A DNA stretch of 24,650 bases from the UHGV virus genome UHGV-0200293. One strand, 5' to 3'. Source of the DNA: a virus. The number at the start of each line of letters is the position of its first letter. Position 1 is the stretch's first letter. Shown here in pieces: positions 1 to 8,507 of the stretch. Made by a program: the position numbers and the translations under genes. The notes beneath the pieces are model-generated. The model did not search any database. It saw only the letters and a program-made list of their open reading frames with translations, and was not told the origin of the DNA.

Positions 1-1
1 C

Positions 2-271
2 GGATTGTATGTATCTAATTTTTCTGGCTATGTTGTTGGGATATTGTTCAGTTACGTCCTTAACACATATTTTACTTTCTCGTCAAAGCCATCATTCAGA
101 AGGTTGGTTAAGTTCATTGTATGTTGTGCAGCCTGCTACGTCATCAATCTCATAGCCATGAAAACAACTATAGCATTTGGTTTTGAAAATAAATATTTAA
201 TCCAGCTGGCAGGGATGTTTTTCTATACAATCTCTGGTTTTTTAATTAATAAACTCTGGGTAATGAAATAA
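2..271 (+). CDS. gtrA: GtrA-family bactoprenol-linked glucose flippase, 5'-truncated by the window edge
   Basis: The frame is open to the window edge, so the TTG at 5 is an internal Leu. The sequence is small and hydrophobic with a ...LNTYFTFSSK... GtrA-like motif. A TAATG overlap leads into gtrB, and it is first in a gtr-type operon. Confidence 0.8.
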   Translation, partial: GLYVSNFSGYVVGILFSYVLNTYFTFSSKPSFRRLVKFIVCCAACYVINLIAMKTTIAFGFENKYLIQLAGMFFYTISGFLINKLWVMK

Positions 272-1227
272 TGAAAGCGCCTGTTCTTTCCATTGTTGTG
301 CCTTGCTATAATGAGCAAGATGTTTTTAGCCTTTGTCTTAATGAGTTATCATCTCGTATGAGTGAAATGAAAGACAAAGGGAAAATAGATAGAGAAAGTC
401 ATATAGTCTTTGTTGATGATGGAAGCAAAGATAATACCTGGCGATTAATAGAAGAAGCATCAAGTGACAGTTGTCTGGTGAAAGGGGTAAAACTTTCACG
501 AAATAAAGGCCATCAGACTGCATTGATGGCAGGGTTATCATCATGCACTACATCTGACATTACTGTAAGTATTGATGCTGACTTGCAAGATGACACCGCT
601 GTGATTGAAAAAATGGTTGACTCCTATCTCTCTGGTCACGACATAGTATACGGAGTAAGGAACGACAGAACCTCAGATAGTTTTTTTAAGAAGTTTACAG
701 CAGAAGCATTCTATAAGGTAATGACCAGGCTTGGTGTAAATCAGGTTGAAAATCATGCTGATTTTAGGCTGTTAAGTCGAAGGGCGCTCAACTCCCTTTT
801 ACAGTATAAAGAACAAAACCTATATATTCGGGGTCTTATCCCCCTGATCGGATATCCAAGTGATAAAGTGTACTATTCTCGTCATGAGCGAGCGGCAGGA
901 GAATCAAAGTACCCGCTCAGAAAAATGCTGGCTCTTGCCCTTGAAGGAATCACATCGTTCTCAGTAACTCCGTTGAGGATCGTAACCGCTTTAGGTTTTA
1001 TTATCTCTATACTTTCATCAATTGGAGTTATATATACTCTTGCCCAGTATTTTCTTGGACATACTGTTAGTGGATGGGCGTCGATGATTTTAGCTGTACT
1101 ATTTATAGGTGGAGTTCAAATGCTCTGCCTTGGTGTGATTGGCGAGTATATTGGTAAGATATATATTGAAAGTAAAAAAAGACCAAAGTTTTTTATTTCT
1201 GAGGTAACGGAAAATGACAAAGAATAA
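271..1227 (+). CDS. gtrB: Bactoprenol glucosyltransferase (GT2 family)
   Basis: It has the LSIVVPCYNE, VDDGSKDNT and DADLQDD (DxD) motifs. Two C-terminal TM helices match classic GtrB architecture and size (318 aa). Confidence 0.9.
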   Translation: MKAPVLSIVVPCYNEQDVFSLCLNELSSRMSEMKDKGKIDRESHIVFVDDGSKDNTWRLIEEASSDSCLVKGVKLSRNKGHQTALMAGLSSCTTSDITVSIDADLQDDTAVIEKMVDSYLSGHDIVYGVRNDRTSDSFFKKFTAEAFYKVMTRLGVNQVENHADFRLLSRRALNSLLQYKEQNLYIRGLIPLIGYPSDKVYYSRHERAAGESKYPLRKMLALALEGITSFSVTPLRIVTALGFIISILSSIGVIYTLAQYFLGHTVSGWASMILAVLFIGGVQMLCLGVIGEYIGKIYIESKKRPKFFISEVTENDKE

Positions 1228-2914
1228 TAAAGTATATTTTATATCCTTTGTGATTGTGTTAGTTTTAGCTCTGTTAAATGTGCATGTATTCATGGGTAAT
1301 GAACAGAGCGTGTACTTTTGGGACTCCAAAAATTTTTGGATGCAATGGATGAGATACGCCGATCTGTTGTTCCAGAGCCCGTTGGACTGGGGCATGTCTG
1401 TTTATACAACAGTAACAAAGGATGACTATAACGCTCTGTCTACAGCATTATTATTTCCATTTAAATTTCTGCCCATCGACTCAAGAAGTGCTTACATATA
1501 CGCTATAACCATTACATATTTAATCCCTGTAATTTTATTGGCAACATTTATTTTATTAAAAATATTTGAAAACAAGTCAGCATTCTATGTAATAACAACA
1601 GCTATTCTTGTTGTATTATATACTCCATTCTGGAAACCAACTCTTAGAGGTTTGCCTGATGTTGTCGGACTGATACCTATTCTCTGTGTGATTTATTTTA
1701 CGATAAAAAATAACTTATCAAACAGAGTATTGTTATTTAAATCAGTTTTTCTCGGCATTCTGTTATGGATGCCATTTGCATTTAGAAGATGGTATATATT
1801 TACGGTCATCACCTTATATATAACCTTGCCTTTTTTTGTGGCTTATTATCATGATGTTAAGTTTAAGTTCGAGTTAAACAAAGCAAAAAACATATTGATT
1901 AACTTTTTCATCTCAGGAATAATCACTGTTGCCCTTGCATTATTAATTCAGAAAGAGTTAATAGCCAGAATAATATCTACAGATTACTCAACCATGTATT
2001 CAGCTTACCAATATGGATTCTCAAAATCACTTATGGTGATTTTTGGAGATATTGGTTTGTTTATGATGCCATTTTTTATATTTGGCATAATTAGTGCCAT
2101 TTCAAACATTAAAACAAAGCAAAGCGTTTTTGTTCTTTTCTCTGCTTTCTCGTTTGTTATCAGTGTACTATTATTTACTGGTACTCAGACACCCGGCATT
2201 CATCATGTTCTACCATTCTCTCTGTGGTTCTTGTTTGTTTCTATTTTTGGGCTAAATTACATATCATCATTATTCAAGAGCAAGGATGCCGAACATTCTT
2301 TACTTACCATAATTATGGTAGGCATGACGCTTATATCTGTTAGCACTTTTAACAAACCATTCCCTTCTTATAAAAATGGCTTCCATATATTTCCTGATGG
2401 ATTATACCCATATAAAGTTTCCAATTTCGACGAGTACAAAAGGCTGAGTGATAGACTTGTAGCCCTTACGAATAGTGGCGATAAAATATCTGTATTTAGC
2501 TCTAACTACATCTTAAATGATGATATGTTACTTACAATATCTAATTTCAAGCTTACCCCTCGTGTATTCCGTGTATCTCAAGTAGATTTGCGCGATAAAC
2601 TCAGGATGGAAGCTTTCTCCACAAAATATGTTGTGGTTACTAACCCCATACAGTTGCATTTAAACAAGGACGGACAAAGGGTCATCTCTTACCCTGCGAC
2701 CTTATTGTTAAATAGAAAAGGTATAGGTTCGGCATATAAAAAACTTGATGAAAAATATCAACTAAGTAAAGGGGTTTCTGCATATATCTATGAAAAGCAG
2801 AGGCCATTTACTGAGTCTGAGTCCCAAGATTTTATAAAAAACATAGTTAATATGTACCCTCAATGGAATGAACTATACAATAATGCTAAGACATTAAAAT
2901 TATTATCTGAATAA
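1214..2914 (+). CDS. gtrC: Serotype-specific O-antigen glucosyltransferase-like polytopic membrane protein (GtrC position)
   Basis: This is a 566-aa, very AT-rich ORF with many predicted TM segments followed by a ~190-aa soluble C-terminal region. The start overlaps gtrB by 14 nt and has a GAGGT SD. It is third in the gtr operon. Confidence 0.7.
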   Translation: MTKNNKVYFISFVIVLVLALLNVHVFMGNEQSVYFWDSKNFWMQWMRYADLLFQSPLDWGMSVYTTVTKDDYNALSTALLFPFKFLPIDSRSAYIYAITITYLIPVILLATFILLKIFENKSAFYVITTAILVVLYTPFWKPTLRGLPDVVGLIPILCVIYFTIKNNLSNRVLLFKSVFLGILLWMPFAFRRWYIFTVITLYITLPFFVAYYHDVKFKFELNKAKNILINFFISGIITVALALLIQKELIARIISTDYSTMYSAYQYGFSKSLMVIFGDIGLFMMPFFIFGIISAISNIKTKQSVFVLFSAFSFVISVLLFTGTQTPGIHHVLPFSLWFLFVSIFGLNYISSLFKSKDAEHSLLTIIMVGMTLISVSTFNKPFPSYKNGFHIFPDGLYPYKVSNFDEYKRLSDRLVALTNSGDKISVFSSNYILNDDMLLTISNFKLTPRVFRVSQVDLRDKLRMEAFSTKYVVVTNPIQLHLNKDGQRVISYPATLLLNRKGIGSAYKKLDEKYQLSKGVSAYIYEKQRPFTESESQDFIKNIVNMYPQWNELYNNAKTLKLLSE

Positions 2915-2942
2915 AAACAGGCCGCGAACGCGGCCTGTTTTT
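2913..2942. terminator. Bidirectional rho-independent terminator shared by gtrC (+) and the tail-tube chimera (-)
   Basis: Sequence is AAAAA-CAGGCCG-cgaacg-CGGCCTG-TTTTT. The stem is perfect and GC-rich, flanked by an A-run and a T-run. Confidence 0.85.
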
Positions 2943-3750
2943 ACACTATCGTCCCAGTACCATTTTTCCATACTGATCCGGTCCATGTTATAGCGTAACC
3001 TAAAGTTGTATCTAATATCTGCGCACCTGCGTCAACAAGACCAAGGGCGGGCCTTCCTGCGGTAGTAAAACTTGGCAGGCGCGGAGGCTTTACAAAGTTA
3101 ACAGAGTTAGCTGTTCCAAAACATGTAATACTAGCTGTAGTTAACTGTACTGTATATGTATTAGACCAAGCCCAGCGAGTTGTTCCATCATAATATCCAT
3201 TTGCAATTTTGTTATCAAATGTAGCTGGAGTAACTTCAACACCAGTAACAGCGATTGAATCAGCCACTTCGAACACCACGGTGTCAGCGTCGTAAACTTT
3301 CCACTCACCAGAGAAAGTGGAAATGTCGTTGGTCCCGAAGTCTCCAGACCATGACGTGGTATTCATGTAGCCCTGAATGTAGGTGCCAGCGTTCTCACCA
3401 GCGAAGTCGAAGCGTACCCAAAGGTTAGGCTGCCGACCTGCCTGCACTTCATCAAAGATGTACTTCGACAGACGCCACGCGCCGATCTCGTTATCTTTAT
3501 CCGACTTGCGAAACTCACCTTCACCGGAGATCGTCAGATCCATGTTGTTGACCAGGTTCTCCACCAGCCCTTTAGCATCATCTGCTTCGGAGTTGATGGT
3601 GTTCATCGAATAGTCGATGCCCTTGGTCGTCATAGCGCCGAGACGCTTCCACTCGGAAAGCGCTGGCACTGCGTCGGGGCAGCCAAAGGCCATGCGTAGC
3701 ACAGTTACTTTCCCGATCAGCTTGCCAAAATCATTAGCACAGCCTTGCAT
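2941..3750 (-). CDS. Phage major tail (tube) protein-like N-terminal domain fused to an AT-rich fibre-like C-terminal extension
   Basis: Residues 1-~160 have the pattern of TP901-1/phi13-type major tail proteins (...TISGEGEF...WVRFDF...SGEWKV...). Composition shifts near 3235-3260. The C-terminus carries LPSFTTAGRPA...LDTTLGYAITWTGSVW, a motif I associate with tail fibres/spikes. SD is GAGAGGT. Confidence 0.6.
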   Translation of the reverse strand: MQGCANDFGKLIGKVTVLRMAFGCPDAVPALSEWKRLGAMTTKGIDYSMNTINSEADDAKGLVENLVNNMDLTISGEGEFRKSDKDNEIGAWRLSKYIFDEVQAGRQPNLWVRFDFAGENAGTYIQGYMNTTSWSGDFGTNDISTFSGEWKVYDADTVVFEVADSIAVTGVEVTPATFDNKIANGYYDGTTRWAWSNTYTVQLTTASITCFGTANSVNFVKPPRLPSFTTAGRPALGLVDAGAQILDTTLGYAITWTGSVWKNGTGTIV

Positions 3751-3809: not shown

Positions 3810-4016
3810 CTATTCGCCGTAAACGCACATGAACTGAAGTCGGAAGACCAATCGTCCCTCTTCAGTCAGGAGTGGTGCTGGCATATTCCCGAGGTTTTGA
3901 ATCAGGCCAAGGCACTCATCGGCAATGTCGTTCTGTTCGACATAATTGATGATTTCCTATGCCTTTTCTGCTGCTGGGCGACGATTACGTACTCGTTCGT
4001 ACATTGGAGGAGTCAT
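3810..4016 (-). pseudogene. Small 68-codon late-operon ORF interrupted by an in-frame TAG at codon 20 (3957-3959)
   Basis: The ATG at 4016 overlaps the upstream stop as ATGA. Translation is MTPPMYERVRNRRPAAEKA-TAG-EIINYVEQNDIADECLGLIQNLGNMPAPLLTEEGRLVFRLQFMCVYGE. It was missed by the ORF track. Confidence 0.5.
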
Positions 4017-4381
4017 AACGACATTTCCTTGGCGATTGCAGCGTCTATCTGTCGCCGGGTTTCTTCGAAACCTTTAGTAAGAAATTCTTTCTTGGCCGTT
4101 GCCCGGCGGAAGTTCTGCGGTACATTCGGATCATGGACATAAACGGCGTAGTTAGCAGTGTATCCAACGCGCCCAGTAACACGATTTCCGTTCACCGTAA
4201 TCTCTCTGAATTGGCTGTTTATGAGGGTTGAAGTATCAATTGGTGTATACAGAGCCGCCTGCGTTCCGCCTATAATCAAAGCAGATTGCATAGCACGAAC
4301 GACTTTTCTCCCCTGTATATCACCAACAATAGTGTTCAGGTGCCTCTTCGCCTAGTTGACGCCCTTCACTTTGATGCCCAT
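4013..4381 (-). pseudogene. HK97 gp10-family head-tail protein with an in-frame TAG at codon 10 (4352-4354)
   Basis: SD GGAGAAAAA precedes the ATG at 4381. Translation is MGIKVKGVN-TAG-AKRHLNTIVGDIQGRKVVRAMQSAL...YTPIDTSTLINS...YANYAVYVHD, the typical gp10-family pattern. The ORF track shows only the 92-aa 3' part. Confidence 0.7.
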
Positions 4382-4437: not shown

Positions 4438-4611
4438 CTACTTATACATGATGCTGATTTCTTTTGAATCCTCTGACTCTTTCCATTCCAACTGAATGAG
4501 AAGAGACGGATCATTACGAATTAGCTCTGCAATTTCATTAAGCTTATCCGCAACAACTCCCGCTGACTCTGGAGTGAAATTACCAGTGTTGTAACCGCTG
4601 ACTTCAGACAT
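4438..4611 (-). CDS. Hypothetical 57-aa moron protein (MSEVSGYNTGNFTPESAGVVADKLNEIAELIRNDPSLLIQLEWKESEDSKEISIMYK)
   Basis: It has a strong SD (GAGAGGA), sits in an AT-rich segment, and has its own terminator directly downstream. It is below the ORF-track size cutoff. Confidence 0.55.
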   Translation of the reverse strand: MSEVSGYNTGNFTPESAGVVADKLNEIAELIRNDPSLLIQLEWKESEDSKEISIMYK

Positions 4612-4657
4612 AAATTCCTCTCAACGCGTGGGTTTAGAAGACTCTATCATACTCCCG

Positions 4658-4999
4658 TCAGGATGGCGTAATCATCCGCCAGGCGTTCGAACGTGTCGGC
4701 GTAGCGGATATAACCTGGCGCACCTCGTCGGCACCGGCCACAACCGGGTCTGCTTCAGTCGAAACCCCAATCAGCAGGTAATCACCAGCGGCCGCCAGCG
4801 CAAACTCCGTCCAGACGGTATTCTTCACGACGATTTCAGCGCCCAGGCTGGCTAGCTTCTTGCTGAGTCCGCCCTCGTAATCACAGATGATTTGCTCAGG
4901 TTCGGCATAGCCTAGCGGGTCGCCGTATTCGTCATTGCCTTCCAGTTTGCGCCAGATGGTCGCCGTGGCGGTATAGCTCCACGAAGCAATGCTCGACAT
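4658..4999 (-). CDS. Head-tail joining / head-closure-like protein (113 aa)
   Basis: The start at MSSIASW has SD GGAAGGAGGG and a TGATG overlap with the upstream ORF. Assignment rests on its position in the head-tail module and is weak. Confidence 0.55.
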   Translation of the reverse strand: MSSIASWSYTATATIWRKLEGNDEYGDPLGYAEPEQIICDYEGGLSKKLASLGAEIVVKNTVWTEFALAAAGDYLLIGVSTEADPVVAGADEVRQVISATPTRSNAWRMITPS

Positions 5000-5172
5000 C
5001 AGCCCTCCTTCCAGCGCAGCACCTTCGCGCCGGTCGCCCGGATGCGCGGGCAGTTGATGAACCACTCGCCATCCGATTTCACGTGGCCAGTCGTCTCCCG
5101 CCCGGTGTCGGTCATCACCCAGACGCGGGTGAAAGAGCGCGGCAGCCCGTGCTTAACTGATTTGTACGTCAT
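4999..5172 (-). CDS. Small 57-aa head-tail module protein (MTYKSVKHGLPRSFTRVWVMTDTGRETTGHVKSDGEWFINCPRIRATGAKVLRWKEG)
   Basis: It is coupled at both ends by TGATG overlaps at 5172 and 4999. It was missed by the ORF track. Confidence 0.55.
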   Translation of the reverse strand: MTYKSVKHGLPRSFTRVWVMTDTGRETTGHVKSDGEWFINCPRIRATGAKVLRWKEG

Positions 5173-5552
5173 CAGCAGCCTCCGACCACCATGAACAGGC
5201 CGACGCTGCTCCCGGCGCTGATTGGCAGGTCGCCGGTGCAGCCGCTGGTATCGAGTTTCGCCAGTGAGTCGCGCAGCCAGTTGATGCTGTCGTCGCCATA
5301 TTCAAACGAGCGGGACGCGCCAGACGGAGCGCCCTGCGATTTGATGCGACGCGCGCCGGACGACGTAGCCATCAATGCGGCGGCGTACATCAGGATCAGC
5401 TTCGCGGTGCACTCGTCATACCCCGCGCCATCGAGGCATGGGATAATCTTGTTCACTACGCAGAGGATCGGCTCCAGCAGCGAGCCCGGAATGGAGTAAC
5501 CCAATTCACCGGGGAACGCCTGCACGTCTGCCGCTGTGATTGGGTCAGCCAT
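5172..5552 (-). CDS. Head-tail connector/adaptor-like protein (126 aa, DUF4054-like by eye)
   Basis: It lies downstream of the capsid gene. The N-terminal MADPITAADVQAFPGEL... resembles gp6/DUF4054-type connectors. Confidence 0.5.
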   Translation of the reverse strand: MADPITAADVQAFPGELGYSIPGSLLEPILCVVNKIIPCLDGAGYDECTAKLILMYAAALMATSSGARRIKSQGAPSGASRSFEYGDDSINWLRDSLAKLDTSGCTGDLPISAGSSVGLFMVVGGC

Positions 5553-5554
5553 GG

Positions 5555-5761
5555 TTATTTACCCTTCTTCGCTTTGGTTTTCGGCTCTGCTGGAGCGGCA
5601 ACCTCAATATGACGCTCTCCGCCATCGATCACCTCAACCAGACCAGTAGATTCCCAGCGTTCCGCAACATCATCGCTAACCTCTAACGTCATGCCAACCT
5701 CCAACTTCTGGAGATTGGCACCGGAAAAGAGGTTAGATGAGACCACTTTTACCAGTGCCAT
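5555..5761 (-). CDS. Small 68-aa head-module protein with a Lys-rich tail
   Basis: A G-rich SD is present. It sits between the major capsid and connector genes. Confidence 0.55.
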   Translation of the reverse strand: MALVKVVSSNLFSGANLQKLEVGMTLEVSDDVAERWESTGLVEVIDGGERHIEVAAPAEPKTKAKKGK

Positions 5762-5841
5762 GCCGCCCCCCCTTAGCTCGAAGCGAAAACGACAGAGAAG
5801 TGACCGTTGATGTCCTGCTTAACCATCAGGCCAGCTGCACC

Positions 5842-6852
5842 CTAGGTACGCCAGACATAATCGCTGTTATAGAAGAGGCGCGGGTCGGCTACTGTGCCGA
5901 ACGCCTGACCAATAATGGGGGCAATAACTCCAGCACCCAGCGGAACAATCAGGATCTGGTTGCCGGTCAACTGAGCATCTTCTTTTACTGCGGAAATACC
6001 AGATAACTTCAGAATCTCTTCCAGCACGGTGCGGGTTTTATTCTGAGTGTCGTAGTACTGCTCGAGGTTGGACATGATTTCTGCCGACACATGCCAGGTC
6101 TGCTGGCCATACTGATAGTTTTGAAGCTTCAGTACATCGCGCAGCGCAATCGCGGCAGCACGCATAGCGTCTGGATCAGTGCTGGTCGCGAAGTTTACTG
6201 TCAGTGTTACCTGAGCAACGCGCTCGTCCGCCTGCAGCCCTTTCCAGGTATAGTCATCAAATTTGATGAAATTGCCTTCGCTGTCGCGAAAACCATTCCA
6301 GATATAGTCCACATACTGACGGCGAACATCATCAACAGAGCCTGCCTGAGCGTCAGACAGTGATGCCAGAGCGGAACCTTTGTTGAATACCGGATCACGC
6401 CAGTTGAACTTAAAGCCGCTGTCATGGATCGACACCATCGTTCCGTCAAAGGTGTAGCTTTTCGCGTCCAGAGCGGCACCAATCTGACCTGACATAGAAG
6501 TGTGAGCCCAGCCTCGTCCGCCTTTGCGGGCATACTCGTACACTGATTCTTCCAGACGAACGGAACGGGACAGCGGCATCAGATCATTCAGTAGCGTAAA
6601 CTCTGTGGTCGGCTCAAACTCGGCCAGTACTGTCTGGTCATACGCTTTATACAGTCGGCGGATATCGTCTACTGCATTAACAACATCCAGTACAGGGGCG
6701 TTGGATGCCTCACCACGAAATTGCGCGCGGGAGATGAAATCTGCCACAGCCTGAGCGCTAGCATTGCGTGCGAATTGCAACTCCTGAAACTGAGCCTGGT
6801 TGGCCTCAAAGTTTCGGGTCTCCTTCGCCTTTTTCATAGAAAATGCAAACAT
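5842..6852 (-). CDS. Major capsid protein (DUF2184/encapsulin-like type by eye)
   Basis: The ORF is 336 aa with SD AAGGAGAG. It follows the scaffold/protease and decoration-like genes. Sequence character matches capsid proteins that accompany DUF1073-type portals. Confidence 0.75.
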   Translation of the reverse strand: MFAFSMKKAKETRNFEANQAQFQELQFARNASAQAVADFISRAQFRGEASNAPVLDVVNAVDDIRRLYKAYDQTVLAEFEPTTEFTLLNDLMPLSRSVRLEESVYEYARKGGRGWAHTSMSGQIGAALDAKSYTFDGTMVSIHDSGFKFNWRDPVFNKGSALASLSDAQAGSVDDVRRQYVDYIWNGFRDSEGNFIKFDDYTWKGLQADERVAQVTLTVNFATSTDPDAMRAAAIALRDVLKLQNYQYGQQTWHVSAEIMSNLEQYYDTQNKTRTVLEEILKLSGISAVKEDAQLTGNQILIVPLGAGVIAPIIGQAFGTVADPRLFYNSDYVWRT

Positions 6853-6863
6853 TCAGTCTCTCC

Positions 6864-7307
6864 TTACTTGAATACGACGCGAACCAGATCGCCAGCAGCA
6901 GCGGTCAGCGCTTTGTCTTCTTCTACATATGCGAACACAGTGTCAGGCGTTTCGCCTGTAGTCGTTGCCAGTTTGATCCGACCATTGTCCACGGCAACCG
7001 GATCGCCTTTTGAGTACGTTCCCGCCGCTGCTCGCAAATTGAGGAACACACCAGGAGTGGGGTGAAATGCAACTACCCAGTCACCAGCGGCGATTGTATC
7101 GTCTACTGTTTTGCAGCGCAGGTAGTCATAGTTGGCAACGTAGTGAATTGCTGCTTCTGAGCCATCGGTTGAAGCAGTGAACTTACCATCAACAAAAATA
7201 CCGACAGTACCTGGCTGAGTGGCTGCCGCAGCAGCACCTTCGCGATGAAGTTGCGGGTTAGCGAAAATGCCGCCCGCGTGAATTACGTGTTTTCCGTCTT
7301 TAGCCAT
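6864..7307 (-). CDS. Head decoration / capsid accessory protein-like (147 aa)
   Basis: It is a Gly/Ala-rich, beta-type sequence lying between the scaffold and major capsid genes. Confidence 0.55.
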   Translation of the reverse strand: MAKDGKHVIHAGGIFANPQLHREGAAAAATQPGTVGIFVDGKFTASTDGSEAAIHYVANYDYLRCKTVDDTIAAGDWVVAFHPTPGVFLNLRAAAGTYSKGDPVAVDNGRIKLATTTGETPDTVFAYVEEDKALTAAAGDLVRVVFK

Positions 7308-7310
7308 TTT

Positions 7311-8507
7311 TTACTCCGGCATTTCGCTGACTGATTGGGTATTGGTAGCCTGGTTGCGGAATGCACCGTTCAGGCCGAAAGATGTCTGGCACTTGGCGTA
7401 CATGGCGTCGAGCGCCTTACCGTCCAGATCTGCAACTTCGTCGTCGCTCATGTTTATTGCCAGCTTTACAGCGGCGCGCTTTTCGCCTTTCTCTTTGTCA
7501 GAGTTGGCATTGATCTGGCTATTAATTGCGGAGACCTGCTCAGTAAGGACCTTCGCCCACGCTGGCATCTCTTCGCTGTTGGTGGTCTGCTCTTTAGCCT
7601 TCTTGTCTTCCGCTTCTTTCTTCTCACGGGCGGCCTTCTCTTCAGGCGTTTCTTCTTTGCTGCCGGCGTTTTCTGCCAGCATTTGGTTGTATGCGTCCAT
7701 CAGTTCGGCATCGGTTTTACCGTCAACCGATTTACCTTTGGCCTTCAGCGCATTAACGATGAGCTCTTTCATCGGGTCTGTTTCCTTCTGGGTTGAATCG
7801 CTGTTGGCGCCGAATAACGCCTTTAGCTGGTTGAAAAATGATTTGAATGCGGGGTCTTGCTGGTCTGGGGAATTGGACTCTTCGAGATTGACGACCTCGA
7901 TTTCGACTTCATCACCCTCAGCATTTACGAAGATGCCCACGCCCTCCTCCGGCGTTCCGGCGCCAGGCTCATCAAGCAGCACCGCCACATGGTCGAACAT
8001 CATGTTGGTGGCGATCTCGTTGTACTTCTTGCCCTTCGATTCGCCGTTGGCGGCTATGCCGGAATACAGCAGGCCGGTAGAAATGTGAATCGGGTCGGAG
8101 TTGGTGCCGGCCAGCATCTCATCCAAACGGTTAATCAGGCGCTTGCTCTTGTCGCTGGACTCGGCGTACTGGCGGTTAACGTACATGTCGCCCATCACCT
8201 TCCCGTCCTTGTGGCTGACGTTCTGAAGCCATGCCCCGACGTGGTACTCATTCACTGCCCGGACATCACGTGCCGACACATGCTTGCCGTCCACTTTCGG
8301 GTGGCCCAGCGGCATCGGGTTACGCTCGAGCGTGTTGTAGGCCTTTTCGATTTCTGCTGCCGGGTACAACTTCCGGTTCATCACGATATCGTCCACGACA
8401 GGCGTGATGCCGCGAACCACGATATGTGGCTTGCCGTCGATGGTTTCAGTGGTGATGTTTGAAGCGGAGTTGACGACGGTCAGCACGTTAACGCGGTTGC
8501 GTTTCAT
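7311..8507 (-). CDS. Prohead scaffold/protease-like protein (DUF2213-like N-terminal half, Lys/Glu/Ala-rich coiled-coil C-terminal half)
   Basis: The ORF is 398 aa with SD GAGGA. It sits upstream of the capsid gene. The C-terminal low-complexity helical region is typical of scaffolds. Confidence 0.7.
   Translation of the reverse strand: MKRNRVNVLTVVNSASNITTETIDGKPHIVVRGITPVVDDIVMNRKLYPAAEIEKAYNTLERNPMPLGHPKVDGKHVSARDVRAVNEYHVGAWLQNVSHKDGKVMGDMYVNRQYAESSDKSKRLINRLDEMLAGTNSDPIHISTGLLYSGIAANGESKGKKYNEIATNMMFDHVAVLLDEPGAGTPEEGVGIFVNAEGDEVEIEVVNLEESNSPDQQDPAFKSFFNQLKALFGANSDSTQKETDPMKELIVNALKAKGKSVDGKTDAELMDAYNQMLAENAGSKEETPEEKAAREKKEAEDKKAKEQTTNSEEMPAWAKVLTEQVSAINSQINANSDKEKGEKRAAVKLAINMSDDEVADLDGKALDAMYAKCQTSFGLNGAFRNQATNTQSVSEMPE

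What the first reader, a model, noticed from the sequence alone, without database searches (positions are those of the whole stretch)
2941..3750. Tail-tube gene fused to a fibre-like 3' end, the scar of a deletion that removed the whole tail module
The first ~160 residues look like a TP901-1/phi13-type major tail protein. Near 3235-3260 the DNA becomes visibly AT-rich. There the protein switches to ...LPSFTTAGRPALGLVDAGAQILDTTLGYAITWTGSVWKNG, a TTAxRP...(N/D)T(T/D)LG...W.G..W motif I associate with tail-fibre/spike proteins.

The ORF ends exactly in the bidirectional terminator shared with gtrC. In P22-type converting phages that position is occupied by the 3' end of the tailspike/fibre gene. 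No chaperone, tape-measure, baseplate or fibre genes lie between the tube gene and gtrC. The simplest reading is an in-frame deletion from mid tube gene to the end of the receptor-binding gene.

The result is an element with a complete packaging and head module but no tail.
Basis: partly seen in the sequence, partly recalled or inferred. Interest (0 to 1): 0.6.

Follow-up and report, generated by a model that had tools for sequence, protein, structure and literature searches.

The report
Tail-tube/tailspike fusion scar, decayed prophage
This gene is the leftover of a deletion of roughly 10 kb that cut out the tail genes of a dead virus in the Citrobacter koseri chromosome, joining the start of its tail-tube gene to the last 92 codons of its tailspike gene; this is ordinary prophage decay, not a new kind of protein.

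Summary
Window 2941-3750 (minus strand) is one 269-codon ORF made of two unrelated pieces.

- Codons 1-177 (3220-3750) are 97% identical to the first 177 residues of a 251-aa siphovirus major tail protein. In 79 related prophages that protein carries a C-terminal Big_2 Ig-like domain.
- Codons 178-269 (2944-3219) are 99% identical to the last 92 residues of a 672-aa tailspike.

Other Citrobacter koseri strains carry that intact spike at the same purB-phoP locus, directly followed by the same gtrC-gtrB-gtrA genes. Their DNA homology to the window stops exactly at 3219.

The junction (3220|3219) lies inside the Ig-like domain and is in frame. GC falls from 52% to 42% across it. The ORF's stop codon overlaps the T-tract of a hairpin terminator shared with gtrC.

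Its corollary, a complete head module, is not. The capsid gene, the Q antiterminator, the tail-completion gene and the tail terminator each carry a premature TAG. A head-tail gene is frameshifted, and no immunity or replication gene was recognised. Sister strains carry further deletions.

This is a multiply defective cryptic prophage that keeps its O-antigen glucosylation cassette. Interest is low.

The parts
2941..3750 (-). Chimeric ORF of 269 codons plus stop (tube 5' part fused to spike 3' stub). Identical to NCBI WP_230032128.1 of Citrobacter koseri.
3220..3750 (-). Codons 1-177: the tube domain of a siphovirus major tail protein plus the first ~10 residues of its Big_2 Ig-like domain.
   Evidence: PHROG 853 E 4.6e-81. 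97% identical to L001 tube residues 1-177. Big_2 spans residues 168-245 in the intact protein. 79 relatives are all 251 aa.
2941..3219 (-). Codons 178-269 plus stop: the last 92 codons of a 672-aa tailspike gene, read in their native frame.
   Evidence: 99% identical to L006:10001-10276, spike residues 581-672. Collinear with L093 spike-gtrC at 97.6% over the whole 3.2 kb, with only about 17 differences in window 1000-3219. HMMER hits fall at C-termini of spikes and fibres.
3219..3220 (-). Deletion junction: ...CCAGCTACA|TTTGATAAC... on the minus strand. No clear microhomology to the available reference alleles.
2912..2942 (.). Bidirectional intrinsic terminator shared by gtrC and the chimeric ORF. 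The 8-bp G+C-rich stem lies at 2917-2937 and is flanked by an A-tract and a T-tract.
   Evidence: Sequence. MFE -23.1 and -25.2 kcal/mol on the two strands. The pattern scanner missed it; I assume this is because the A and T tracts pair and extend the stem.
1214..2914 (+). gtrC-position gene (566 aa). About 10 hydrophobic segments followed by a ~185-aa soluble C-terminal domain; GC 33%; no family match.
271..1227 (+). gtrB (bactoprenol glucosyltransferase type).
   Evidence: PHROG 841 E 3e-110. Pfam Glycos_transf_2 on the same gene in L002-L005.
5..271 (+). 3' part of gtrA. The window starts inside the gene.
   Evidence: GtrA_DPMS_TM on the homologous gene in L003, L004 and L093. Collinearity.
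3810..4016 (-). Tail-terminator pseudogene. It lacks about 59 N-terminal codons relative to the 127-aa L001 protein and has an in-frame TAG at 3957-3959.
   Evidence: L003 has the uninterrupted 68-aa form with Pfam Phage_tail_terminator_3.
4013..4381 (-). HK97-gp10-like tail-completion pseudogene, with an in-frame TAG at codon 10 (4352-4354).
4650..4999 (-). Head-tail gene (116 aa in L001) with a frameshift near 4694-4709.
5776..6852 (-). Major capsid gene with TGG->TAG at 5842-5844. The last 23 conserved residues are lost.
   Evidence: PHROG 771 covers profile positions 1-330 of 354
16583..17263 (-). Q antiterminator gene split by TGG->TAG at 16958-16960.

Best explanation
The ORF is a non-functional scar. 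A lambdoid siphovirus prophage integrated between purB and phoP of Citrobacter koseri. Its gene order was int-xis ... lysis-head-tube-tail-tailspike-gtrC-gtrB-gtrA. It lost an internal segment, about 9.5 kb if the tail module resembled that of the E. coli relative. The lost segment ran from codon 178 of the major tail (tube) gene, inside its C-terminal Ig-like domain, to codon 580 of the tailspike gene.

The joint happened to be in frame. Translation therefore runs from the tube domain into the last 92 residues of the spike and ends at the spike's own stop codon, in the terminator shared with the convergent gtrC.

The chaperone, tape-measure, distal-tail (TipJ etc.) and spike genes are gone, so no tail can be built. 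The rest of the prophage is decaying too. I infer that selection keeps only the gtrABC O-antigen glucosylation cassette with its terminator.

Shown: the two parental identities, the exact junction, the shared locus and the further lesions. Inferred: that the deletion occurred in situ in one prophage, that the chimera has no function, and that gtrABC is what selection retains.
For: Tube side:
- Residues 1-177 are 97% identical to the 251-aa tube protein of an intact E. coli prophage, which is followed by chaperone-position genes (one annotated DUF6246), tape measure, NlpC/P60, TipJ and a spike next to O-antigen-modifying genes.
- All 79 related loci with a complete gene of the normal form encode the 251-aa tube+Big_2 protein.

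Spike side:
- Residues 178-269 are 99% identical to residues 581-672 of a 672-aa tailspike.
- That spike (P0060) is annotated in C. koseri and has a Tail_spike_N domain.
- In L093-L098 the full spike sits at the same purB-phoP locus, 27 nt from the same gtrC.
- Window 6-3219 aligns with L093 14955-11741, and the alignment ends exactly at the junction. Window and L093 differ at only about 17 positions over window 1000-3219, which covers gtrC and the stub.
- The L093-type remnant keeps the 3' end of tipJ plus the spike. Tail genes therefore once lay upstream of this spike at this locus.

Junction and distribution:
- The nucleotide junction is defined.
- The exact chimera is indexed in 69 blocks of public assemblies, and every copy inspected lies in this context.

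Decay of the rest:
- TAG stops in the capsid, Q, gp10-like and terminator genes; a frameshift in the 116-aa head-tail gene; no cI, cro, O or P recognised.
- Sister strains carry extra deletions of window 6389-19220, 5161-6388 and 9795-13579.
Against: - No genome with the direct intact ancestor was found, meaning the window-type head and tube together with this spike.
- The only complete phage carrying this spike (L099) has an unrelated head and tail module. The tipJ stub of the L093-type remnant is L099-like.
- The deleted interval could therefore have been larger or more complex than one tail module, for example spanning tandem or recombinant prophages.
- The chimeric ORF is intact and nearly invariant in all copies seen. 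That is also what weak selection or recent origin would give. No expression data are available.
Confidence: 0.92

Rival explanations
1. Natural domain shuffling. The 269-aa protein is a working tube protein whose usual C-terminal Ig-like decoration domain was swapped for a fibre-type C-terminal module, in a phage that can still build tails.
For: Tube proteins do carry exchangeable C-terminal decoration domains, such as Big_2 in the relatives. The 92-aa stub contains a widespread, sometimes repeated 'TTAxRP...DTTLG...W.G..W' module, PHROG 20787. The fusion is in frame and intact in all copies seen.
Against: - There are no tail genes anywhere in the element.
- The junction lies 10 residues inside the Big_2 domain rather than at its boundary.
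- The stub DNA is the very 3' end of the neighbouring spike gene, at its native distance from gtrC.
- None of 79 tube relatives and none of the 17 stub homologues examined (of 59 found) shows this architecture.
- The flanking tail-completion and terminator genes are pseudogenes.
Confidence: 0.02
2. Exapted product. The chimeric tube fragment is expressed from the cryptic prophage and retained because it helps the host, for example as a dominant-negative subunit that poisons tail assembly of superinfecting relatives.
For: The ORF is uninterrupted while at least four neighbouring phage genes have acquired stops. It keeps its ribosome-binding context and its own terminator. The exact protein is indexed in 69 blocks of public assemblies.
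Against: Late-gene transcription needs Q, which is broken by a TAG. A terminator-like hairpin sits just upstream at 3790-3771. The sequences are too similar for a dN/dS test. Other C. koseri strains do without the chimera and keep the spike-gtr remnant instead.
Confidence: 0.04
3. Tail-less, capsid-forming satellite (cf-PICI-like). The element makes its own heads and borrows tails from a helper phage.
For: The window has terS, terL, portal, MuF-like, scaffold/protease-like, decoration and capsid genes but no tail genes.
Against: - The capsid gene is truncated by a TAG, and Q is broken.
- The head-tail joining genes (gp10-like, terminator, the 116-aa gene) are pseudogenes.
- The backbone is lambdoid, with NinB/NinG/Q, endolysin and Rz-like spanin genes.
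- Sister strains delete parts of the head module.
- The tail-less state has a visible deletion scar rather than a dedicated architecture.
Confidence: 0.01

Closest known systems
Cryptic (defective) lambdoid prophages of enterobacteria, such as DLP12, Rac and Qin of E. coli K-12 (from general knowledge)
   Same: An integrated phage that has lost essential modules through internal deletions and point mutations. It is left with truncated or fused ORFs, and decay states differ between strains.
   Different: This one lies between purB and phoP in Citrobacter koseri. I did not find it described in the literature searched. The specific tube::spike in-frame fusion is particular to it.
Serotype-converting phages with the tailspike gene next to gtrABC (P22, epsilon34, BTP1, Sf6 types). 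General knowledge; see also PMC2629481 and PMC4413052, listed.
   Same: The receptor-binding spike gene is the last late gene and converges on gtrC-gtrB-gtrA near the attachment site. The intact arrangement is seen in L093-L098.
   Different: Those are podoviruses. Here the head and tube genes are siphovirus-type (PHROG 853 tube; a TipJ stub and tape measure in relatives). In the window only 92 codons of the spike survive.
Salmonella SPI-16-type gtr islands, which are phage remnants that retain only gtr genes (general knowledge, not tested here)
   Same: The O-antigen glucosylation cassette outlives the phage that brought it.
   Different: The window still holds about 20 kb of phage genes. No sequence comparison with SPI-16 was made.
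Lambda gpV-like major tail proteins with a C-terminal Ig-like (Big_2) domain
   Same: The parental gene has this architecture: a tube domain plus Big_2 at residues 168-245.
   Different: In the chimera the Big_2 domain is cut after about 10 residues and replaced by spike residues 581-672.

Membership tests
Siphovirus major tail (tube) protein, PHROG 853 type with C-terminal Big_2 domain | N-terminal tube domain homologous to the family | tested here: met
   PHROG 853 E 4.6e-81 over residues 1-182. 97% identical to the L001 tube protein over residues 1-177.
Siphovirus major tail (tube) protein, PHROG 853 type with C-terminal Big_2 domain | Complete C-terminal Ig-like (Big_2) domain and a full length of about 251 aa | tested here: not met
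   The match stops at profile position 178 of 254. Big_2 spans 168-245 in the intact protein, and the junction is after residue 177. 79 relatives are 251 aa.
Siphovirus major tail (tube) protein, PHROG 853 type with C-terminal Big_2 domain | Followed by tail chaperone, tape-measure and distal tail genes | tested here: not met
   The ORF's stop is 26 nt from the gtrC stop. Compare the intact order in L001.
TP901-1 / phi13-type major tail protein (Pfam PF06199 Phage_tail_2; NCBIfam/TIGRFAM models) | Score above the curated family threshold | tested here: not met
   PF06199 scores 18.7 bits against a cut-off of 23.8, E 0.0018. No NCBIfam hit at E <= 0.01. At most a distant resemblance.
Tailspike with TSP1/Gp66-type N-terminal anchor and beta-helix body (the donor of the 3' end) | C-terminal 92 residues identical or near-identical to a bona fide spike | tested here: met
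   99% identical to residues 581-672 of the 672-aa L006/P0060 spike.
Tailspike with TSP1/Gp66-type N-terminal anchor and beta-helix body (the donor of the 3' end) | N-terminal Tail_spike_N anchor and beta-helix catalytic body present | tested here: not met
   Both are absent from the 269-aa chimera. They are present only in the donor: PF18668 at residues 67-124, and weak beta-helix tailspike fold matches from a model of mean pLDDT 58.
gtrABC O-antigen glucosylation cassette of converting phages | gtrA flippase-type and gtrB glycosyltransferase, followed by a polytopic type-specific gtrC | tested here: met
   GtrA_DPMS_TM and Glycos_transf_2 on the homologous genes. gtrB matches PHROG 841 at E 3e-110. 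The 566-aa third gene has about 10 hydrophobic segments but no family match. Its gtrC role is inferred from position and topology only.
Cryptic / defective prophage | Integrated next to an integrase, essential modules missing, pseudogenes present, and decay states that differ between strains | tested here: met
   int lies at 22264-23550 next to phoP. The tail module is absent. TAG stops and a frameshift are present. No immunity or replication gene was recognised. Other deletions occur in L003-L005 and L093-L098.
Capsid-forming phage satellites (cf-PICI type) | Intact own capsid and packaging genes with intact head-tail connectors, in a dedicated tail-less architecture | tested here: not met
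   The capsid gene is truncated by a TAG. The gp10-like, terminator and 116-aa head-tail genes are disrupted. The regulatory and lysis backbone is lambdoid.

The most novel reading that the evidence does not exclude
The uninterrupted tube::spike chimera, and in other strains the uninterrupted full-length spike kept beside gtrABC, may be retained by selection rather than by chance. For example, the chimera could act as a dominant-negative tube subunit that blocks tail assembly of superinfecting relatives. The purB-phoP locus would then be a domesticated phage-derived surface and defence module existing in alternative states.
Probability: 0.04. Interest if true: 0.5.

Novelty: new member of a known kind. 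Interest (0 to 1): 0.15.

Why it matters
Mostly it matters for annotation.

- The protein is deposited as 'DNA breaking-rejoining protein' (WP_230032128.1). It should be flagged as a chimeric remnant of a tube gene and a tailspike gene.
- The surrounding 24 kb should be called a defective prophage, not an intact or head-only element.
- The locus is a clean, nucleotide-resolved example of one prophage site decaying along different routes in one species while the O-antigen-modifying gtrABC cassette is kept. That may be useful for studies of prophage domestication and of C. koseri O-antigen variation.
- It does not reveal a new mechanism.

Tried and rejected
- tblastn of the 92-aa stub against 50,697 phage records: no match. 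The word-indexed search of 5.8 billion proteins found no candidate. Only the full HMMER scan and the IMG/VR pattern scan found relatives.
- Scan of GTDB species-representative genomes with the stub: 600 pattern hits, none confirmed.
- blastn of window 1-3300 against phages: only one weak hit, inside gtrB.
- Search for the direct intact ancestor through the exact DUF7370 neighbour protein: every copy lies in the fusion context. None of the 180 fetched loci combines the window-type tube with this spike or gtrC.
- AlphaFold2 on the chimera without an alignment: mean pLDDT 31, uninformative. Only window sequences and homologous-protein hits may be submitted, and I ran no further search on collecting tube homologues.
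- Model of the donor spike from 17 homologues: mean pLDDT 58. Residues 566-626, which include the breakpoint residue 581, are low-confidence, so I cannot say whether the stub is a complete domain. The Foldseek PDB search gave only weak beta-helix and tailspike matches, TM about 0.2.
- Pfam and NCBIfam on the stub and on gtrC: nothing significant.
- Amber-suppressor idea to explain four TAG stops: no tRNA gene in the window. TGG->TAG and CAG->TAG are the commonest transition routes to a stop, so I rejected this as a signal.
- Microhomology at the junction: none evident against the available reference alleles.
- Literature: no description of this locus was found.

Full report
**What is there**

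The window has one ORF at 2941..3750 on the minus strand, 269 codons long. Upstream on the same strand lie phage head and packaging genes. Directly downstream, convergent on the plus strand, lie a gtrA fragment (5-271), gtrB (271-1227) and a 566-aa polytopic membrane protein in the gtrC position (1214-2914).

The ORF's stop codon (2941-2943) overlaps the T-tract of a perfect 8-bp G+C-rich hairpin at 2917-2937, which is flanked by an A-tract and a T-tract. The hairpin folds at -23.1 and -25.2 kcal/mol on the two strands. gtrC stops at 2914. No gene can therefore lie between the ORF and gtrC.

**The 5' part is a tube gene**

- PHROG 853 'major tail protein' matches residues 1-182 against profile positions 1-178 of 254 (E 4.6e-81). 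The profile's C-terminal third is unmatched.
- Megablast against complete E. coli genomes finds about 90% identical prophages whose homology begins at window 3221.
- One of these prophages, L001 (NZ_AP042695), is intact. Its order is int, O-antigen acyltransferase genes, a 665-aa tail spike, TipJ, NlpC/P60, two small genes, tape measure, two chaperone-position genes, a 251-aa 'Ig-like domain-containing protein', tail terminator, head-tail genes, capsid, portal, terminase, lysis, Q.
- The window ORF is 97% identical to that 251-aa protein over residues 1-177, and not beyond.
- Pfam places a Big_2 domain at residues 168-245 of the intact protein. The break is therefore about 10 residues inside the Ig-like domain.
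- Of the 80 closest IMG/VR loci, 78 encode the 251-aa tube+Big_2 form (79 with L001). The other two are a gene cut by a contig end (L045) and a different fusion, to a tape-measure C-terminus (L013).
PF06199 scores below its threshold, and no NCBIfam model hits.

**The 3' part is the end of a tailspike gene**

- Residues 178-269 gave nothing in phage tblastn or in the word-indexed protein search.
- A full HMMER scan of 1.84 billion representatives found 59 hits. The eight long ones examined match the stub at or near their C-terminal ends, and six of them carry a tail fibre, tailspike or minor tail PHROG match.
- The best long hit, P0002, aligns over the whole stub and has a tail-fibre N-terminus.
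- None of the ten shorter hits scanned has a tube domain.
- A scan of IMG/VR found a 46.6-kb prophage whose last gene encodes a 672-aa protein. Its final 92 residues are 99% identical to the stub...VYFRPH|FDNKIANG....
- That protein has a Tail_spike_N (TSP1/Gp66) anchor. Its N-terminus matches solved tailspikes by sequence.
- It has 99%-identical copies annotated in Citrobacter koseri, which identifies the host. In line with this, the window's phoPQ flank is only 81% identical to E. coli. The chimera itself is NCBI WP_230032128.1 of C. koseri, named 'DNA breaking-rejoining protein'.

**The decisive comparison**

Exact look-up of the full spike shows it in other C. koseri strains at the same chromosomal site. 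The order there is: phoQ-phoP, a truncated int (170 aa), xis, about 1.2 kb, the 672-aa spike, then gtrC (566 aa), gtrB, gtrA, purB, hflD, mnmA ... icd.

Window 6-3219 aligns with L093 14955-11741. The alignment ends precisely at window 3219, which is spike codon 581. Over gtrC and the stub the two differ at only about 17 positions in 2.2 kb.

The 1.2 kb upstream of the spike in those strains contains the last ~700 bp of a tipJ gene. A tail module therefore once preceded this spike at this locus, and it was removed there by a different deletion.

At nucleotide level the window reads ...GTTGAAGTTACTCCAGCTACA|TTTGATAACAAAATT.... The left side follows the tube genes and the right side follows the spike gene. 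I see no convincing microhomology.

GC is 0.524 left of the junction and 0.424 right of it. The spike gene as a whole is 0.459. Using L001 as a ruler, the lost interval is about 9.5 kb.

**The state of the rest of the element**

The claim of a complete head and packaging module does not hold. Compared with L001 and with the sister strain L003:

- The major capsid gene has TGG->TAG at 5842-5844, removing 23 conserved C-terminal residues.
- The Q antiterminator has TGG->TAG at 16958-16960 and is split into two ORFs.
- The HK97-gp10-like tail-completion gene has a TAG at codon 10 (4352-4354).
- The tail-terminator gene lacks about 59 N-terminal codons and has a TAG at 3957-3959.
- The 116-aa head-tail gene is frameshifted near 4700.
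- The DUF2213 scaffold/protease-like gene lacks about 70 internal codons.
- Between int/xis and NinB/NinG I found only DinI, a RecT fragment and small ORFs. There is no recognisable repressor, cro, or replication gene.

Sister strains with the identical fusion carry additional large deletions: window 6389-19220 in L004, and 5161-6388 plus 9795-13579 in L005. L003 has a split gtrC. Every copy of the neighbouring DUF7370 protein that I could look up lies in the fusion context.

**Interpretation**

The ORF is the in-frame scar of a deletion that removed the distal two-thirds of the late tail operon of a lambdoid siphovirus prophage.

I infer that the deletion happened in the integrated state, because a tail-less phage could not have delivered itself. 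I also infer that gtrABC, with its terminator, is what selection keeps. The gtr genes are present at this locus in every copy inspected, although gtrC is split in L003 and gtrA is shortened or not called in several strains. The survival of 92 spike codons is most simply a by-product of a deletion endpoint that spared the shared terminator.

**What remains uncertain**

I could not find the direct intact ancestor. The one complete phage with this spike (L099) has a head and tail module unrelated to the window's, and the tipJ stub of the L093-type remnant is L099-like. The window's ancestor was therefore either a mosaic phage, with an L001-like head and tail plus this spike-gtr-int module, or the product of a more complex event such as a deletion across tandem or recombinant prophages. 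Either way the ORF is a deletion joint.

Structure prediction did not help. The chimera alone gave a mean pLDDT of 31. The donor spike model (mean pLDDT 58) is unreliable around residue 581, and its fold search gave only weak beta-helix tailspike matches.

**Rivals**

- A naturally domain-swapped, working tube protein. This is contradicted by the missing tail genes, the junction inside Big_2, and the absence of the architecture among 79 relatives and among the stub homologues examined.
- A capsid-forming satellite. This is contradicted by the broken capsid, Q and connector genes and by the lambdoid backbone.
- An exapted product, for example a dominant-negative tube fragment. This cannot be excluded, because the ORF is intact where its neighbours are not. 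However, its Q-dependent late transcription should be off, and other strains lack it.

**Novelty and score**

Gene fusions and deletions in cryptic prophages are commonplace. This one is a clean, apparently undescribed instance in C. koseri. It is a new member of a known kind, of interest mainly for annotation and for prophage-decay studies. Interest 0.15.

Noticed in passing
window 16958-16960, 5842-5844, 4352-4354, 3957-3959: All four premature stops in the prophage are TAG. They fall in Q, the major capsid gene, the gp10-like tail-completion gene and the tail terminator. Two are clear TGG->TAG changes. There is no tRNA gene in the window. This is probably just the commonest transition route to a stop, but the uniformity is striking.
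   Followed up: partly
L093-L098 (for example L093:8101-15076): Other C. koseri strains hold a different remnant at the same purB-phoP site: a truncated int (170 aa), xis, the 3' ~700 bp of tipJ, an uninterrupted full-length 672-aa tailspike, and gtrC/B/A. The spike protein is indexed in 47 blocks of public assemblies. Whether an intact O-antigen-directed spike beside gtr is kept by selection is open (compare BTP1, PMC4413052).
   Followed up: partly
L013 (IMGVR_UViG_3300032124_000008), ORF starting at 7802: An independent, different scar in a related prophage. The tube gene with almost its whole Ig-like domain is fused in frame to the C-terminal part of a tape-measure-like protein (546 aa).
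   Followed up: no
window 4438-4611 (-), terminator-like hairpin at 4421-4402: An AT-rich 57-aa ORF with its own terminator is inserted between the 116-aa head-tail gene and the gp10-like gene. It has no PHROG match and no counterpart at this position in L001, so it looks like a moron.
   Followed up: no
window 1-1000 (gtrA/gtrB); L002-L005, L093-L097: The called gtrA length varies between strains (128, 115, 107 or 33 aa, or not called). The window's gtrA/gtrB allele differs by about 7% from that of L003 and L093, whereas gtrC and the stub are almost identical. This suggests recombination inside the gtr cassette.
   Followed up: partly
window 7314-8507 (-): The DUF2213 scaffold/protease-like gene is 398 aa here, against 460-464 aa in L003 and L001. 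An internal ~200-nt segment is missing, in frame.
   Followed up: partly
window 2941-3750; Klebsiella phage ST13-OXA48phi12.5 (MK714353.1): This tube-protein family is named 'DNA breaking-rejoining protein' in NCBI records (WP_230032128.1 and the Klebsiella phage). Another Klebsiella phage record (KY271396.1) calls the homologue 'major tail subunit'. The first name looks like a propagated misannotation.
   Followed up: no
P0184 (178 aa, 5 contigs) and P0183 (171 aa, 17 contigs): Members of the same 90% cluster are tube proteins that end at almost the same codon as the junction ('...VTGVEVREAHW' and '...AATGV'). They may be further independent truncations at the tube/Ig boundary, or contig ends.
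   Followed up: no
L096:15403-22019: In one complete C. koseri genome (CP136810.1) the gtrA side of the remnant is flanked by Peptidase_S24, H-NS and cold-shock genes instead of purB. This suggests a chromosomal rearrangement with an endpoint at the prophage site.
   Followed up: no
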